Translations under genes and position numbers: made by a program | Assembly (NCBI GenBank): GCA_965248265.1 | Contig: CBDFJF010000002.1 | Span: 928,001-992,000 of the forward strand | Reading direction: 5' to 3' | From: Candidatus Latescibacterota bacterium | GTDB taxonomy: Bacteria > Latescibacterota > UBA2968 > UBA8231 | Length of the DNA stretch: 64,000 nucleotides | Part shown: positions 1-16,903 of the stretch, piece by piece | How the letters are laid out: every line of letters begins with the position of its first letter | How positions within the stretch are numbered: position 1 is the stretch's first letter | Notes under the pieces: model-generated | Databases searched by the model: none | Seen by the model: only the letters and a program-made list of their open reading frames with translations | What the model was told of the DNA's origin: nothing

Positions 1-409
1 GTTGCAGCTCGACGGAAGGACGGACACCAAATTCGTCGCGCATCTGGTCGACGATGGCATCCTTGACCTTGAGTGAAGCGAAGTGGGTATGATCGATTTG
101 GGAATCGGCAGAGAAGCAGTCCACGGCAAGGGTGCCATGGGGGGACAGGTGCTGGCTCCAGTCGACGGCGAGGGTGCCGTCGTAGAGTTCTTCTGGTGTG
201 GTTGCCGGGAAACGGCTCACAGGAAGCAGCACGCGGTTGGCGAAGCGCGACCACAGACAGATGCGGTAGGCTACCTCCATCCCACCATCGAAGGAGACCC
301 CGGAGCGGCCGGTCTCGACGTTCCCGGCCTGCATCGACGTCAGTTCGGTGGCGAGGAGTGGTTCCATGCCTCTGGAGACGGTCGCGAACAGGGACTGGTC
401 AGCAGGCAT
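1..409 (-). CDS. rlmL: 23S rRNA guanine methyltransferase RlmL/RlmKL, N-terminal THUMP region (partial, runs off the window)
   Basis: Manual translation from ATG 409: MPADQSLFATVSRGMEPLLATEL...VAYRICLWSRFANRVLLPV...ELYDGTLAVDWSQHL...HTHFASLKVKDAIVDQMR, the typical RlmL N-terminus. Absent from the ORF track because there is no stop in the window. Confidence 0.85.
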   Translation of the reverse strand, partial: MPADQSLFATVSRGMEPLLATELTSMQAGNVETGRSGVSFDGGMEVAYRICLWSRFANRVLLPVSRFPATTPEELYDGTLAVDWSQHLSPHGTLAVDCFSADSQIDHTHFASLKVKDAIVDQMRDEFGVRPSVELQ

Positions 410-816
410 CAGGGTGGATTCTCCAAGGGGCTGAGCGTGGCAAGCTGCGCCAGTGAGCCCGCCAGACGCTCTTTCAGTGAACTGGGACACATCCGAGATC
501 AGCAGTGGGCAGCCGTCGCAGGGTGTGGGTTCTGTTTTACGTAATTGAGCCAACGAGTTGGACCCCAATTACGGGCCACGAATGTACGCCAGTGAGAACA
601 TCGGCTGCAATCTGAGCAAAGATGTCCAAACGCCTTTCGCCAGGCGGTGGGCGCACTTAGAGCCGCTGTGGTCACAACGGCCGAGCCGGTTTCCGGCGGC
701 ATGCCCTGAAGGGTTCTGACACCCGGGCCACTTTGCGGGTAGCCGTTGTTACACCGGGGAAGATGCGTCATCAGCGCTGGCGAGTCTGACCTGCACACCC
801 CGCTTGAGACCGACCC

Positions 817-1700
817 GACGAGGTTCTGCCGCGGGTACCGGTGCGGCAGTGGGTGCTGAGCCGCCGCTATCGCCTGGCCTGGGACAAAGAGCTGGTCGGG
901 CAGTGCTTGCCGTCTTCCTGCGTGTCGTCGACGGTGAGGACGGTCCGGAATTCGTGCTGGCGCCACCACTGAGCGACGACGACGTGCAACAAATCGTCGA
1001 GACCACAGCCCAACGCGTGGTCCGCCTGCTGCCACGGCGCGGCCTGCTGGAAGAGGGCAATACCGATCCGCTCATGGAGCAGGAGCCACTGCTTGCCACG
1101 ATCAGGGCGGCTTCGATCCAGGGCCAGGTGGCCCCGGCGAGCGTGCCGGCTAACCCGTGAGCAGGCGCCTGCTCGATCCCCAGGGCATCCGCACCGGCCC
1201 CCTGTGCTTTCGCCGCGCGCGGCTTCTCCCTGCATGCAGCCACCCGCGTGACGGCCGCCGACCGCACCCGCCTGGAAAGGCTGTGCCGCTACGTCAATCG
1301 CCCCCCGCTGGCAGCGGGCCGACTGCAAATCCTGGATGACGATAGAGTGGCCTTCGACCTGAAAACAGTCTGGTCGGACGGCACCTATCGAATTGAGCTC
1401 TCGCCACAAGAGTTGATAGAGAAACTGGCCGCCCTGGTACCGCCACTGCGCCTCAACCTGTTGTGCTATCACGGCGTCCTGGCGTCCAACGCCGCCGACC
1501 GGGCACGGATCGTACCAGGCCCGAAAGAAGAGGCCTGCGAAGCGGACCCCTGTGCGCATGCGGTGCCCATCCCCGCCCAACGTCGGCACCGCCTGGCCTG
1601 GGCTGACCTCCTCCGGAGAGTTTTTCGAATAGACGTTACCGTGTGCCCGCCTGCGGTGGTCACATGAGAATAGTCGCCGCCCTTCGCCCCAGCACGGCCC
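817..1700 (+). pseudogene. IS91/ISCR-like (Y2 HUH) transposase remnant, frameshifted and internally deleted
   Basis: Fragments in several frames: DEVLPRVPVRQWVLS, RLERLCRYVNRPPLA, WSDGT...ELIEKLAALVPP..NLLCYHGVLA, WADLLRRVFRIDVTVCP/CGGHMRIVAAL. No HUH segment is visible between LAVFLRVV and DGEDGPEF. Confidence 0.85.
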
Positions 1701-1819
1701 GATCCCCAGCGCTGCGTCCCCATCTCCCGCTGGCAGCTGCCGTTCCGTCCGCAGGCGCTGATCCGGGCACCCTATCCGCTTGCCCATCGTTCATCGCACC
1801 ACGATACACGCAAAAGCAC

Positions 1820-1877
1820 GGCCCTCAACACCCTCGAAAAACCTCAAACGCGCTTGACGGACGCCCGATAACGCCCT
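1820..1877 (+). repeat. 58-bp dispersed repeat, copy 1 (putative right/oriIS end of the IS91-like element, interrupted by the IS110 element)
   Basis: 57/58 identical to 16524-16581. The continuation AACCACTACACATT appears on the far side of the IS110 element (~3466-3478). Confidence 0.85.
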
Positions 1878-2079
1878 GCTATGAGAAAGCCTTCTTTGTC
1901 AAATCAGGCCGACTTGTCGGCCGCGGCGGTGCGGTTTGCGCCTGATCTGCTGTGCCGGAGCTCATCTGCCATGCTGCTGCTATGAGAAAGCCTTCTTTGT
2001 CAAATCAGGCCGACTTGTCGGCCGCGGCGGTGCGGTTTGCGCCTGATCTGCTGTGCCGGAGCTCATCTGCCATGCTGCT
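1876..2079. repeat. Tandem duplication with 101-bp period covering the IS110 right end
   Basis: 1876-1978 is identical to 1977-2079. Confidence 0.95.
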
Positions 2080-2205
2080 ATGCGCACTCTGAATGGCCGT
2101 CGTTACGGCCGGTGCAAGTTTGGGTCCATCTGGTCACAGTGCTGCAATCTTTATATCGACCTTGCATGCAGGTCAGGGCATTATGCGCAGTCACCTGGGC
2201 CAGGG
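2060..2205 (-). ncRNA. Putative bridge/seek RNA of the IS110 element
   Basis: The non-coding region downstream of the transposase contains segments matching the target (2175-2184, 2149-2155) and the donor junction (2117-2125, 2075-2082), each pair flanking a stem. Boundaries are approximate. Confidence 0.7.
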
Positions 2206-2298
2206 CATGGAGCTCTCAGTGCAGAGAGGTCACTCGTTCACAATTGTTTGTCGCGATCGCCTTCTCCGTGTTCATGTTCCTGGTAACAGGGTCCTTGT

Positions 2299-3342
2299 TC
2301 AAGCGGCCTGTCGCGTGTCCTGTCGTAGCGGTTGATACTCGGCGCCGCTGATCCACAGAGTGTGCAGCAGCACCGCCAGCTTGCGGGCCACCGCCACGGC
2401 CGCACGCTTCTTCCCCTTCTTGCCACCCCGCTGCGCCAGCTGCAGTCCCCAATGCCGTAGATCACAATCGGGACCCAGCGGTCCCAACAGGTAGTGACCA
2501 CATTGCACCAGCAACTTGCGCAGCAGCTCATCACCCCGTTTGGAGATGCGCATCTGCGGTTGGCCATCGCCCGACTCGTGCTGGCGTGGCTTCAGGCCGA
2601 TGTAAGCACCGACCGAGCGACTGCTACGAAACCGATGCGGATCCTCCAATACCAACACGAAAGCCAACGCCGTCACCGGACCGACCCCCTTCACCTGGGT
2701 CAACCGCGCCGTGTCCGGATACCGGTCTCGGCAGTGACGCACCAGCGTCCGTTCGTACGCACGCAGGGTGCGCGTCAACGTCGCGATGGTCCGTAGCACC
2801 GGCCCCAGAGCCGGTCTTAGACTGCTGGGCACATGCATCACCGCCCGGGTATGGAAGACCTCGGCCGAGCACTTGGGAATGCGTGCCCCCATCGACTTTA
2901 CCGCACCGCGCACATGGTTGATCAGTTTCGTCCGCGTCCCCATCAGCCGATCACGTGCACGCAGAAACGCCAGGTCGACCTGGGCGTCCTCACTGCGATG
3001 CTGGACCGGGCGCAACAAGCGCGGATCGGAACGGCCCCAACGAGCCAACGATTCGGCATCGATCGCATCGTTTTTGTCTTCACCACGCCGGTGGATCGCC
3101 CGAGGATTGGCCACCAACACCGCATGGCCCAGCTCGGTCAGCAGACGACTCATCCACGGCGAGTGCGTACCGACCTCCAGCACAATGCGGGCTCGGTCCA
3201 TGCCCGTGAAACGACGCCGCAGCGCCGTCTCCGTGGTAGGCAATCGACCTTCCTCAATCACCTCTCCCGCTTCGTCCACTCCAAACACCTGAGAGTAGCG
3301 GTCGCTCACGTCCAAGCCTATCGTTACCTGTGGGAATGTCAT
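2299..3342 (-). CDS. IS110-family transposase/recombinase
   Basis: IGLDVSD, VLEVGTHS, KNDAIDAESLAR, GVGPVTALAF, AYIGLKPRQHESG, ISKRGDELLRKLL. An AGGAGG RBS precedes ATG 3342. Confidence 0.95.
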   Translation of the reverse strand: MTFPQVTIGLDVSDRYSQVFGVDEAGEVIEEGRLPTTETALRRRFTGMDRARIVLEVGTHSPWMSRLLTELGHAVLVANPRAIHRRGEDKNDAIDAESLARWGRSDPRLLRPVQHRSEDAQVDLAFLRARDRLMGTRTKLINHVRGAVKSMGARIPKCSAEVFHTRAVMHVPSSLRPALGPVLRTIATLTRTLRAYERTLVRHCRDRYPDTARLTQVKGVGPVTALAFVLVLEDPHRFRSSRSVGAYIGLKPRQHESGDGQPQMRISKRGDELLRKLLVQCGHYLLGPLGPDCDLRHWGLQLAQRGGKKGKKRAAVAVARKLAVLLHTLWISGAEYQPLRQDTRQAA

Positions 3343-3478
3343 TAGGCCAGCCTCCTTTGTTTGGGCCTCGAGCCCGGTAAACCCATGTTTGGAGACCAAA
3401 GTAGGTACTCCGTGCAAGGGGGGCTGGCTTTCTCATCCAATCTTTATAACAATCGCTCTCATAGAACCACTACACATT

Positions 3479-3514
3479 GGCGAATCGGACTCCAACGGCG
3501 AATCGGACTCCAAC
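3479..3514. repeat. 18-bp tandem duplication GGCGAATCGGACTCCAAC x2
   Basis: Read directly from the sequence. Confidence 0.9.
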
Positions 3515-3697
3515 GAGAAGTCCAGTTTTCTGGTAGGCCCTCGTTGTCGCCGACAAACGGATCAGTATTTCTTCGTCGAATGGAATCGCGAATCGATAGA
3601 CGTTCCTGCCACGTATCTTTCATTGGACGGTAACGGTGACTTCAAACATGGCTTGCATCCGACTTACTTCACTCGCGTGCGTTGACTGGAGGTAGCA

Positions 3698-4324
3698 ATG
3701 AATACCGAAACGAAGGTTGCTTTGATCGAGAAGTCGCCGGCCCTCATCGGTTTTCTAGTTCTCGTATCCTTCTTGTTCATATACTCCGGGAACATTGACA
3801 TGTACGTGGATCGCATCACTCGCTTCGAAATTGCCGGAATCTCATTGGAATTCTCTAAGAAGCAAGTCCCTGCGGCCTTTTCGGATGAAGTCGCGAACTT
3901 TAACCCGGGAAAAGCTCTGCGCAGTCGCATCGGGTACCTGTCAGCGCCCCTAAAAAGATCCACGATGCTTGTCCTTCACGACGAACCGTCAGTGGCCAAT
4001 TGGCTGGCTAACGTGTTCCGAGGAATGGGCATGACGGTGGATGTGGGCATCTGTTCCGATGGGGCAGCACCACTTCTCAACCACCACTACGATGTAATTC
4101 TCTCTGACATGAATTGGTCAAATTGCTCTATCGGTGCAAAAGACGCTGTCGATTTCCTTGACCAAGTGGATCCCTCTGGCGCGCGCGTTGTTTTCTACAT
4201 TAGCAATCTCATGGGTAACAGAAAGCATATTCCTTTTTACGCCCATGAACTGACCAATTCCTTCGAGGGAATGCTGAATGGTGTCTTGGATGTCATTAGC
4301 CGTAGCGAGAGACTCACCAACTAA
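3698..4324 (+). CDS. Membrane-anchored protein with an atypical response-regulator receiver-like domain
   Basis: GGAGG RBS; N-terminal TM helix; LVLHDEP...YDVILSDM...VVFY receiver pattern; no output domain. Confidence 0.65.
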   Translation: MNTETKVALIEKSPALIGFLVLVSFLFIYSGNIDMYVDRITRFEIAGISLEFSKKQVPAAFSDEVANFNPGKALRSRIGYLSAPLKRSTMLVLHDEPSVANWLANVFRGMGMTVDVGICSDGAAPLLNHHYDVILSDMNWSNCSIGAKDAVDFLDQVDPSGARVVFYISNLMGNRKHIPFYAHELTNSFEGMLNGVLDVISRSERLTN

Positions 4325-16464: not shown

Positions 16465-16596
16465 GCATAGTGAGGATAAACGGCATTCTCGGGAGTCAGT
16501 CAAACGGTTTTTAGGCTTTTCGAGGCCCTCAACACCCTCGAAAAACCTCAAACGCGCTTGACTGACGCCCGATAACGCCCTTTGTAACCACTACAC
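16465..16596. repeat. 132-bp imperfect inverted repeat: two back-to-back copies of the IS91-like end; the right arm contains the empty IS110 target
   Basis: 16465-16525 is an imperfect reverse complement of 16536-16596; 16524-16581 matches 1820-1877. Confidence 0.8.
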
Positions 16597-16903
16597 ATTT
16601 TGCATGTTGGTGGCCGGTTTCGAATGTGGTACCAACTCGGCAACCTAGGTCGTAAGGAGTGCGGGGTTTGTCATGCGGTTAGCTCCGATGGTGTAAGGGG
16701 GCAGCAACAACATTCTCTTCTCTGTCGCCCGGACAGGCATGGAAAATCCCTGTGTAGTCTACGACCCTACGGTATGGTCCGGATGAGCGGTTCAAGATGA
16801 TCACCCGCAACAGGGAGGCGGTCCTGGCATACATGGGCATGTTTCGCCAGACGGCATGCTCTGGCGATTGGGTGACGCGGATCCGAACATCACTGCGCTT
16901 GGA

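What the first reader, a model, noticed from the sequence alone, without database searches (positions are those of the whole stretch)
1820..3478. The IS110 element targets the conserved end of an IS91/ISCR-like element; filled and empty sites are both in the window
Seen in sequence: the flanks of the IS110 element (1820-1877, then TTATAAC...AACCACTACACATT to 3478) re-join to match the uninterrupted GATAACGCC-CT-TTGTAACCACTACACATT at 16571-16599. The filled copy directly follows the IS91-like transposase remnant and carries some extra bases on the right side. Established knowledge: IS91/ISCR oriIS lies just downstream of the transposase, and IS1111-type elements are known to target attC sites, REPs and Tn21-family IRs. 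Inference: this one is guided to a rolling-circle transposon origin, so one element parasitises or inactivates another, or hitch-hikes on it.
Basis: partly seen in the sequence, partly recalled or inferred. Interest (0 to 1): 0.78.

Follow-up and report, generated by a model that had tools for sequence, protein, structure and literature searches.

The report
RNA-guided IS inside ISCR-like origin end
A small RNA-guided insertion sequence of the IS1111/IS110 type sits about 20 bases inside the replication-origin end of a decayed rolling-circle (ISCR/IS91-like) transposon, and its own guide RNA matches that site, so one mobile element is aimed at the end of another.

Summary
Window 1878-3443 (minus strand) is a single-copy IS1111-type element. 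It has a 347-aa DEDD transposase, perfect 11-bp subterminal repeats, 7-bp and 3-bp terminal extensions, and a non-coding region 3' of the gene.

Its flanks rejoin at a CT to match the uninterrupted paralogous site at 16524-16599. The left side matches 57/58. The right side matches apart from one base and 17 extra bases.

The interrupted sequence is the transposase-distal end of an ISCR-like (IS91-family) element. I kept 23 places of this end in the genome. It aligns with the ends downstream of the ISCR1 and ISCR2 transposase genes.

New here: the 3' non-coding region encodes a two-loop bridge/seek RNA, supported by covariation across 37 relatives. Its target guides match the flanks at 9/10 and 6/8. 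Only 3 of 2024 guide-versus-other-locus comparisons score as high, and all three are between loci sharing a target.

The three best genomic matches to the guides are all ISCR-like ends. A relative about 80-85% identical in a marine metagenome sits at the equivalent position of another ISCR-type end.

So the aiming is well supported. Parasitism, inactivation and hitch-hiking remain inference. The element is a new member of a known family with an apparently unreported target class.

The parts
696..1877 (+). Decayed ISCR-like (IS91-family) element, the part left of the insertion. Left-end homology starts near 696. The transposase remnant in several frames covers about 926-1713. The conserved ~170-bp end region is 1707-1877.
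   Evidence: BLASTN to paralogues at 80-90% identity. tblastn with the intact paralogue covers aa 102-136 and 182-432 at about 80%. Left-end alignment.
1248..1667 (+). Remnant ORF carrying the C-terminal half of a Y2 (HUH) transposase domain.
   Evidence: Pfam PF04986 Y2_Tnp, E 1.5e-15, profile positions 100-179 of 183.
1820..1877 (+). 58-bp left flank, the subterminal part of the ISCR-like oriIS-side end. It ends with the CT core (1876-1877).
   Evidence: 57/58 identical to 16524-16581. Member of the 23-place repeat family.
1878..3443 (-). IS1111-type insertion sequence, 1566 bp (1465 bp without the internal tandem duplication). In IS orientation the left end is at 3443 and the right end at 1878.
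   Evidence: Boundaries come from the filled/empty comparison and from the family rule of 7-bp and 3-bp extensions beyond the subterminal repeats (PMC11187229, Introduction). One full copy in the genome.
3426..3436 (-). Left subterminal inverted repeat (ATGAGAAAGCC in IS orientation), preceded by the 7-bp extension at 3437-3443, which starts with the AG core.
   Evidence: Direct reading. Script search for inverted 11-mers found 0 mismatches.
1881..1891 (-). Right subterminal inverted repeat, outer copy, followed by the 3-bp extension at 1878-1880. An identical inner copy lies at 1982-1992.
2299..3342 (-). Transposase (recombinase) gene, 347 aa, intact. Contains a GL-P----SG motif.
   Evidence: ORF list. 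Pfam DEDD_Tnp_IS110 and Transposase_20. NCBIfam 'IS110 family RNA-guided transposase', 215 bits against a cutoff of 140.
2133..2199 (-). Target-binding loop of the bridge/seek RNA: an outer stem, a large internal loop and an inner hairpin.
   Evidence: The minimum-free-energy fold gives this shape. Covariation over 37 family members: 90.5% of cells paired against at most 53.8% in slid controls, and 7 pairs with changes on both sides.
2175..2184 (-). 5' target guide (AUAAUGCCCU), complementary to the top strand of the right flank.
   Evidence: 9/10 to the filled site and to the empty site, 10/10 to three other ISCR-like ends. Family-wide, own-flank mean is 7.5/10 against 4.6 for other loci's flanks.
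2149..2155 (-). 3' target guide plus core (UAUAA+AG), the same sense as the left flank plus core.
   Evidence: 6/8 by the script's 8-nt measure. Family-wide, own-flank mean is 5.2/8 against 2.0.
2075..2127 (-). Donor-binding part of the RNA. A guide complementary to the left-end extension lies at about 2117-2123. A guide identical to the last 5 nt of the right end plus AG lies at 2075-2081.
   Evidence: The right-end guide equals the element's own right end in 44 of 45 family members, across 5 co-varying variants. The left-end guide does so in 26 of 45, against 23% in cross comparisons.
1876..2079 (.). Perfect tandem duplication (period 101, 2.0 copies) of the right end of the IS. It runs from the right-end guide of the RNA to the IS terminus.
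   Evidence: TRF. A 103-nt contig over 1977-2079 from the organism's own run has depth 12, against 5.08 for the neighbouring contig.
3444..3478 (+). Right flank: the terminal part of the ISCR-like end, cut off by the IS. It includes 17 extra bases (3450-3466) that the uninterrupted copy lacks.
   Evidence: The 17-mer occurs once more in the genome, as part of a 24-nt identity at C2:2197528-2197551.
16524..16599 (+). Uninterrupted paralogous ISCR-like end (CT at 16580-16581), a solo 5'-truncated copy. Together with 16468-16525 it forms an inverted pair of two ends.

Best explanation
Window 1878-3443 is an intact IS1111-family (IS110 superfamily) insertion sequence. It moves by a DEDD recombinase guided by a bridge/seek RNA made from its 3' non-coding region. 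The target loop of that RNA specifies a site of about 15 bp around a CT core. That site lies in the small subterminal palindrome of the oriIS-side end of ISCR-like (IS91-family) rolling-circle elements.

The copy in the window results from such a guided insertion, about 19 bp inside the terminus of a decayed ISCR-like copy when counted on the uninterrupted end. It has the fixed orientation and no target duplication.

Shown: the family features, the RNA structure and its four guides, the guide-to-flank matches, the identity of the target as an ISCR-like end, and a second insertion at the equivalent place elsewhere.

Inferred: that the RNA is made and used. Also that the multi-copy end serves as a harmless landing pad. 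Also that the insertion separates the terminal nick region from the rest of the origin and so disables that end.
For: 1. Family features.
- Pfam and NCBIfam hits.
- An 11/11 subterminal repeat with 7-bp and 3-bp extensions and a 3' non-coding region. These are as defined in PMC11187229 (Introduction and 'IS1111 and IS110 family features').

2. Relatives.
- I scanned 82 sources: 81 loci at 51-60% aa identity plus the window.
- 63 show the same ends, and 61 of those 63 have AG right after the right end.
- 47 show the same RNA scaffold.

3. Structure. In an alignment of 37 of those 47, 90.5% of cells are paired. Seven pairs have changes on both sides. The covariation score is 0.288 against 0.121 in shuffles, reached by 0 of 500 shuffles. 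The fold of the window's RNA alone gives the same shape.

4. Guides follow flanks.
- Mean own-flank matches are 7.5/10 and 5.2/8, against 4.6 and 2.0 for other loci's flanks.
- The window scores 9/10 and 6/8.
- Only 3 of 2024 cross pairs reach that, all between loci that share a target.
- The donor guide equals the right end in 44 of 45.

5. Target identity.
- An intact paralogue has Zn_Tnp_IS91 and Y2_Tnp domains. Its best NCBIfam hit is ISCR clade Ia. It is 41% and 38% identical to the ISVsa3/ISCR2 and ISCR1 transposases.
- The end aligns with the sequences downstream of those genes.
- 7 of the 23 end copies have a transposase remnant directly upstream.

6. Genome scan with the 15-mer read from the guides. 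All 3 hits at one mismatch are ISCR-like ends, as are 6 of the 11 hits at two or fewer mismatches.

7. Metagenome X2. A 3849-nt contig about 80-85% identical to the IS has loose ends on both sides. They read as the two halves of an ISCR-type end, split at the same place.
Against: - Only one full copy is in this genome. Three ends that match the 5' guide 10/10 are unoccupied, so activity here is low, recent or further constrained.
- The matches to the occupied site are imperfect (9/10 and 6/8).
- The right flank carries 17 unexplained extra bases, so left and right flank may not derive from one undisturbed end.
- In X2 the clipped alignment implies one more C before the core than in the window. 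The X2 guides could not be read, so that case shows the same place in the same kind of end, not the same guide.
- Of the 11 genomic hits at two or fewer mismatches, 5 are not members of this end family.
- A 41-nt remnant of a related left end at C2:2441079 is not in such an end.
- No RNA data were seen. No match to any Rfam family.
- The 60 related genomes searched hold no copy, so there is no population to count in.
Confidence: 0.85

Rival explanations
1. The target matters only as an abundant, neutral palindromic repeat, a landing pad like the REP sequences used by other family members. That it is a transposon origin is incidental. On this reading there is no parasitism, inactivation for advantage, or hitch-hiking.
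For: Many relatives sit in repeat-like, GC-rich palindromic flanks shared between loci. REP and attC targets are described for the family (PMC11187229 Introduction). Most of the 23 end copies here are solo, 5'-truncated fragments without a transposase gene (16 of 23). The occupied copy was already decayed.
Against: This reading does not conflict with the guided-insertion account. It only denies a functional relation. One of the 81 relatives (L048) lies directly upstream of another ISCR-like transposase gene, which hints at a wider link. The guide covers the most conserved motif of the end.
Confidence: 0.45
2. Hitch-hiking: the IS sits between the terminal nick site and the body of the ISCR-like element. 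It would then be copied and carried whenever the rolling-circle element moves.
For: The position is about 19 bp inside the terminus when counted on the uninterrupted end. The tetranucleotide next to oriIS is the mapped insertion site of IS91 (passages of PMC13181058). That replication starts at oriIS is recalled knowledge, not from a passage I read.
Against: No second copy of the composite (end plus IS) exists in the genome. The host copy has a broken transposase gene. Splitting the subterminal palindrome from the terminus would more likely destroy the origin.
Confidence: 0.08
3. The present arrangement is a rearrangement product. Left and right flanks come from two different ISCR-like ends, for example by recombination between two IS copies or two ends. 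The neat filled/empty picture would then be partly coincidental.
For: There are 17 extra bases in the right flank. Together with the following bases they recur as a 24-nt identity at another locus, where they follow a different upstream sequence. The right end of the IS is itself tandemly duplicated.
Against: Both flanks still match the guides next to the core. No second IS copy exists to recombine with. The extra bases lie beyond the guide-matched positions.
Confidence: 0.15
4. Off-target or chance insertion: the guides evolved for another sequence and the resemblance to the flanks is accidental.
For: Single copy. One mismatch in the 5' guide and two in the 8-nt measure of the 3' guide.
Against: Only 3 of 2024 guide-versus-other-locus comparisons score as high, and all three are between loci sharing a target. 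The three best genomic matches to the guides are the same kind of end. There is a second insertion at the equivalent place in X2.
Confidence: 0.04

Closest known systems
ISEc11, ISKpn4/ISPst6 and ISPa11 (IS1111 family; seekRNA shown experimentally, PMC11187229)
   Same: 347-aa DEDD transposase, 11-bp subterminal repeats, 7-bp and 3-bp extensions and a 3' non-coding region. The RNA's top-strand complement lies 5' of the bottom-strand match, and the two matches overlap at the insertion point. Insertion is orientation-specific with no duplication.
   Different: The target is the oriIS-side end of an ISCR/IS91-like element, not a short linear site, an attC site or a REP. Plasmid records hold only relatives at 36% aa identity or less. 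No experiment exists for this element.
IS4321/IS5075 (IS1111 family, inserted in the terminal inverted repeats of Tn21-type transposons; the target class is recalled knowledge, and IS4321 is only mentioned in PMC11187229 section 13)
   Same: An IS1111-type element aimed at the conserved terminal sequence of another transposon, at one position and in one orientation.
   Different: There the host is a DDE (Tn3-family) transposon with inverted repeats. Here it is an HUH/Y2 rolling-circle element, and the site is its origin-side subterminal palindrome.
IS621 bridge RNA (IS110 group; PMC11208160 seen as a search listing only, details recalled)
   Same: One RNA with two internal loops. One loop carries two guides for the target and the other carries two guides for the element's own ends. 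All are centred on a shared dinucleotide core.
   Different: Here the RNA lies 3' of the gene, not 5'. The order of strand matches is the IS1111 order. No Rfam family matched.
ISCR1 and ISCR2/ISVsa3 (IS91 family), for the target element
   Same: Transposase with Zn_Tnp_IS91 and Y2_Tnp domains. The conserved end lies about 200 bp downstream of the gene and shares a motif of the type GTTTAT..C..CTA..C.
   Different: Only 38-41% aa identity. The score is below the NCBIfam cutoffs for ISCR clade Ia (374 against 925) and IS91 (106 against 125). No resistance genes were seen next to the copies I looked at.

Membership tests
IS1111 family (within IS110 in ISfinder) | DEDD/RuvC-like N-terminal domain plus a PF02371 C-terminal domain | tested here: met
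   PF01548 at E 1.8e-17 and PF02371 at E 6.4e-21. NCBIfam NF033542 scores 215 bits against a cutoff of 140.
IS1111 family (within IS110 in ISfinder) | Subterminal inverted repeats of 11-13 bp | tested here: met
   11/11 at 1881-1891 and 3426-3436.
IS1111 family (within IS110 in ISfinder) | Terminal extensions of 7 bp (left) and 3 bp (right) beyond the repeats, with no target duplication | tested here: met
   With the CT/AG core assigned to the left end, the extensions are 3437-3443 (7 bp) and 1878-1880 (3 bp). No duplication is seen against the empty site.
IS1111 family (within IS110 in ISfinder) | Long non-coding region downstream of the transposase gene; transposase of 330-350 aa | tested here: met
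   The non-coding region is 1878-2298, 421 bp or 320 bp without the duplication. The protein is 347 aa.
IS1111 family (within IS110 in ISfinder) | GL-P----S(T)G motif in the C-terminal domain | tested here: met
   GLKPRQHESG is read in the translation of 2299-3417.
IS1111 family (within IS110 in ISfinder) | seekRNA with the top-strand complement 5' of the bottom-strand match, overlapping at the insertion point | tested here: met
   Guides at 2175-2184 and 2149-2155 lie on the two sides of one internal loop. Family-wide guide-to-flank agreement and covariation.
IS1111 family (within IS110 in ISfinder) | Circular intermediate, RNA bound to the transposase, transposition to the preferred target | not testable with these tools
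   No experiment and no RNA reads. The only related observation is a conserved TTGACA-like hexamer about 19-20 nt from the right terminus in the window and most relatives.
IS91 family / ISCR (the interrupted element) | Transposase with an N-terminal zinc-binding domain and a Y2 HUH domain | tested here: met
   The intact paralogue L085:858-2423 has PF14319 at 1.4e-19 and PF04986 at 2.9e-27. The copy in the window keeps only the Y2 remnant.
IS91 family / ISCR (the interrupted element) | Score above the curated NCBIfam cutoffs for ISCR clade Ia or IS91 | tested here: not met
   374 bits against a cutoff of 925, and 105.6 against 125. I therefore call it ISCR-like, not a member of those named groups.
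IS91 family / ISCR (the interrupted element) | Conserved origin-side end downstream of the transposase gene with a subterminal palindrome | tested here: met
   The end family has 23 places, 20 of them with the terminal motif. It aligns with the ends downstream of the ISCR1 and ISCR2 genes. A GATAA...TTATC palindrome is read in the copies. The oriIS position in IS91 is from passages of PMC13181058.
IS91 family / ISCR (the interrupted element) | Specific target tetranucleotide (GTTC/CTTG type) abutting the oriIS end | tested here: inconclusive
   Bases after the last conserved CACTA are mostly TGC. or CAC., not GTTC/CTTG. The exact terminus is not fixed.
IS91 family / ISCR (the interrupted element) | Rolling-circle transposition starting at oriIS | not testable with these tools
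   Indirect only: many copies are 5'-truncated fragments of 34-170 bp that all keep this end.

The most novel reading that the evidence does not exclude
A clade of bridge-RNA-guided IS1111 elements may be specialised on the ends of ISCR/IS91 rolling-circle transposons. On this reading their guides track the most conserved origin motif, and in one relative (L048) possibly the transposase-proximal end as well. They would then act as natural RNA-guided antagonists, or riders, of a transposon family known for moving resistance genes.
Probability: 0.2. Interest if true: 0.7.

Novelty: new member of a known kind. Interest (0 to 1): 0.5.

Why it matters
- It gives a fully readable natural example of the bridge/seek RNA code in an uncharacterised IS1111 clade. 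All four guides, two for the target and two for the donor, can be read from sequence and checked against flanks.
- It adds a target class I did not find in the papers searched: the origin-side end of ISCR/IS91-like elements.
- ISCR ends are poorly defined experimentally. A guide RNA that picks out their most conserved subterminal motif is an independent pointer to where the functional origin lies.
- It shows how one mobile element can use, and probably disable, another.
- It offers a simple pair of sequences for a transposition assay.

Tried and rejected
- Rfam scan of 1600-3700 at E up to 1: only two weak sRNA matches far below their gathering scores, rejected.
- DNA and protein searches of 60 related genomes: no copy found in those searched.
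- Genome-contig scan with the single protein: one relative at 57% (L004).
The 70-72% JGI relatives (P0008, P0009) were not recovered.
- Plasmid collection: only relatives of the IS transposase at 36% or less.
- Viral contigs pattern scan for the left end: 0 hits.
- One search used a guide offset wrong by one base, and I discarded its hit list. One search replaces it.
- One search placed the core of the empty site one base off, so its printed 8/10 and 3/8 for that site are wrong. One search gives 9/10 and 5/8.
- A few low 5'-guide scores (for example L024) are register artefacts of my fixed 14-nt window. I did not correct them.
- Runs X1 and X3 held small shares of the IS. X1 contigs stop at the IS ends or have flank letters that were not shown, so they add nothing on targets.
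- I considered that the repeat is a REP or MITE unrelated to IS91. I rejected this because it is contiguous with transposase remnants in 7 of 23 copies and aligns with ISCR1 and ISCR2 ends.
- A junction promoter was looked at by eye only and is not claimed.
- Literature: three searches gave no listed title or abstract reporting an IS110/IS1111 element aimed at an IS91/ISCR end.
  - 20 papers, 15 listed.
  - 69 papers, 15 listed.
  - 13 papers, 11 listed.
  I did not read those papers. Supplements are closed, and the supplementary target tables of PMC11187229 could hold such a case.
Full report
**What is in the sequence.**
The stretch 1878-3443 is foreign to its surroundings. To its left, 1820-1877 matches 16524-16581 at 57 of 58 positions (BLAST E 2e-22). 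To its right, the sequence resumes with TTATAAC, against TTGTAAC in the uninterrupted copy. It then carries 17 extra bases (3450-3466) and ends with the same CCACTACACATT. The two flanks meet at a CT (1876-1877 / 3442-3443; 16580-16581 in the uninterrupted copy).

Two details need correcting. First, the 'empty site' is a paralogous solo copy of the repeat, and it is one arm of a 58-nt inverted pair of two such ends. Second, the IS end next to the left flank is perfectly duplicated in tandem (1876-2079, period 101). In contigs of the organism's own sequencing run, the 103-nt piece over the repeat unit has depth 12 against 5.08 next to it. That fits a real two-copy repeat.

**The inserted element.**
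The minus strand encodes an intact 347-aa protein with the DEDD_Tnp_IS110 and Transposase_20 domains. It scores above the NCBIfam cutoff for 'IS110 family RNA-guided transposase'. The element has the following features:
- perfect 11-bp subterminal inverted repeats;
- a 7-bp extension at the end upstream of the gene and a 3-bp extension at the other end;
- a non-coding region of 320 bp (421 bp with the duplication) downstream of the gene;
- a GL-P----SG motif in the protein.

These are the features that define the IS1111 family in PMC11187229 (Introduction and family-features section). The genome holds one full copy and two short remnants of related left ends. None of the 60 related genomes searched holds it.

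**The guide RNA.**
I collected 81 relatives at 51-60% aa identity (L004; L005-L084).
- Of 82 sources scanned, including the window, 63 show the same subterminal repeats and extensions. In 61 of those 63 the base pair after the right end is AG. Many of the 19 without the repeats are contigs that end inside the IS.
- In 47 of the 63 my pattern found a conserved scaffold in the 3' non-coding region.
- I aligned 37 of those 47, leaving out 10 with long inner hairpins.
- The proposed outer stem and inner hairpin are paired in 90.5% of cells, against 26-54% when the partner is slid. Seven pairs have changes on both sides, and no shuffle out of 500 reaches the covariation score.
- Folding the window's RNA alone gives the same shape: a large internal loop with about ten free bases on each side.

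The 5' side of that loop is complementary to the top strand of the right flank. The 3' side repeats the left flank plus the AG core. This is the order reported for IS1111 seekRNAs (PMC11187229, 'A seekRNA finds the target').
- Across the family, own-flank matches average 7.5/10 and 5.2/8, against 4.6 and 2.0 for other loci's flanks.
- A second loop downstream carries a string identical to the last five bases of the element's own right end plus AG in 44 of 45 members, across five co-varying variants.
- It also carries a string complementary to the left-end extension in 26 of 45, against 23% in cross comparisons.

The RNA therefore has the two-loop bridge layout, with target guides and donor guides.

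**The window's guides and its flanks.**
The 5' target guide (2175-2184) matches the right flank at 9 of 10 positions. The 3' guide (2149-2155 and the bases before it) matches the left flank at 6 of 8. Only 3 of 2024 guide-versus-other-locus comparisons score as high on both. All three are pairs of loci that share one target.

I read the guides as a 15-nt site and scanned the genome with it.
- All 3 hits with one mismatch are members of the same end family, and all are unoccupied.
- So are 6 of the 11 hits with two or fewer mismatches, including the window's uninterrupted site. That site scores 9/10 and 5/8.

**What the target is.**
The left flank is the last part of a ~170-bp block. In the window this block follows a remnant ORF with a Y2_Tnp domain.
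- BLAST gave 30 hit groups. I merged 3 duplicates and dropped 4 that matched only the upstream part, which left 23 places. Twenty of these carry the terminal motif.
- Seven have a transposase remnant directly upstream on the same strand. The rest are 5'-truncated fragments of 34-170 bp that all keep this end.
- An intact paralogue encodes a protein with Zn_Tnp_IS91 and Y2_Tnp domains. Its best NCBIfam hit is ISCR clade Ia, at 374 bits and below the cutoff of 925. It is 41% identical to the ISVsa3/ISCR2 transposase and 38% to the ISCR1 transposase.
- In IS91 the end downstream of tnpA is oriIS, with one or two subterminal palindromes (passages of PMC13181058).
- The ends downstream of the ISCR1 and ISCR2 genes in two plasmid records align with the end found here over the last ~25 bases.

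The IS sits in the loop side of a short GATAA...TTATC palindrome. Counted on the uninterrupted copy, this is about 19 bp inside the last conserved bases. Only 5 of the 20 ends with the terminal motif have the CT core in the right place.

**An independent case.**
Public runs were searched with the IS. Four runs of one sample hold it fully and are probably its source. Three metagenomes hold small shares.

I laid X1-X4 on 1650-3650 at 80% likeness. A 3849-nt contig of marine metagenome X2 covers the IS at roughly 80-85% identity. It runs on unlike the window on both sides.
- The 26 letters before place 1874 read as the inner part of an ISCR-type end (a CTTGAC block, then CGATAATGC).
- The letters after place 3449 continue TTATAA with a TTCCTAT block. 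That block resembles the ISCR1 and ISCR2 termini.

The flanks differ from the window's, about 65% identical on the left by my reading and unrelated on the right beyond six bases. I therefore take this as a separate insertion at the equivalent position. There are two caveats. The clip implies one more C before the core than in the window. I also could not read X2's guides, because only part of the differences is listed.

**What remains inference.**
Nothing shows that the RNA is made or that the element is active. There is one copy, and better-matching ends stand empty.

Three arguments follow from position only:
- that the insertion disables the origin;
- that the element benefits from that;
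- that it rides along with the ISCR-like element.

The plainest reading is that a multi-copy, conserved, palindromic end is a safe landing pad, like the REP and attC targets of other family members.

One relative, L048 (55% aa), lies with its right end less than about 60 bp upstream of another ISCR-like transposase gene (50% aa to the paralogue here). It is the only one of 81 loci with such a neighbour. A short resemblance between its right flank and the region upstream of the intact paralogue is not enough to call it the other end.

**Unexplained.**
- The 17 extra bases in the right flank recur once, within a 24-nt identity at C2:2197528-2197551 after a different upstream sequence. They may be a variant of the terminus or a trace of a rearrangement.
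- The tandem duplication runs exactly from the RNA's right-end guide to the true right end. The guide is by design identical to the right end plus core. It may have arisen by slippage between these 8-nt repeats, or by the recombinase using the guide's DNA as a false end. Tandem duplication of IS110 modules is mentioned in a preprint (passages of 10.64898/2026.08.14.744561).

**Verdict.**
The finding is real, and the core of its interpretation, guidance to the origin-side end of an IS91/ISCR-like element, is well supported. The element is a new member of the known IS1111 family, with a target class I did not find reported in three literature searches.

Noticed in passing
window 1876-2079: A perfect 101-bp tandem duplication of the IS right end. 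Its inner boundary is the RNA's right-end guide (2075-2081), which is identical to the true right end plus core. The element therefore carries two right ends.
   Followed up: partly
window 16468-16593: The uninterrupted site is one arm of a 58-nt inverted pair (78% complementary, 10 nt between the arms). The pair is made of two 5'-truncated ISCR-like ends with their termini pointing outward, a MITE-like palindrome. I saw no second such pair in the genome hits.
   Followed up: partly
window 3450-3466 and G000 C2:2197528-2197551: 17 extra bases in the right flank recur once, within a 24-nt identity, at another locus. There they follow a CTTGA block instead of the usual palindrome. Origin unknown.
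   Followed up: partly
window 3479-3515: An 18-bp unit (GGCGAATCGGACTCCAAC) repeated 2.1 times, directly after the last conserved bases of the ISCR-like end.
   Followed up: no
L048 1-2858 (metagenome contig): A family member at 55% aa identity ends at about 1424. An ISCR-like transposase gene (50% aa to the paralogue here) starts within about 60 bp, on the same strand. It is the only one of 81 relatives with such a neighbour. Its guides match its own flanks.
   Followed up: partly
G000 C2:2441079-2441119 and C2:2224672-2224809: Two remnants of related IS left ends (93% over 41 nt; 82% over 138 nt, including the first codons of the gene). The flank of the first is not an ISCR-like end.
   Followed up: partly
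G000: The genome holds 24 loci with ISCR-like transposase similarity, mostly fragments and nearly all on contig C2. It also holds several further end families sharing the motif ..ACG ATAAT.CC.TTTAT.. (for example three copies on C1 near 28599, 676194 and 1594529).
   Followed up: no
L005-L084 flanks: Groups of relatives share targets. Examples are a ..CGCCTAACA|AGGC..TGCAGC.. site (L012, L018, L055, L061, L070 and others) and a ..GTCATCC.G|AG.GC.. site (L022, L034, L039). Each group has matching guides, which shows natural retargeting within one clade.
   Followed up: partly
window 2-568 (minus strand): An ORF open at the window's start carries RlmL ferredoxin-like and THUMP domains. It is an ordinary rRNA methyltransferase gene fragment bordering the mobile-element patch.
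   Followed up: no
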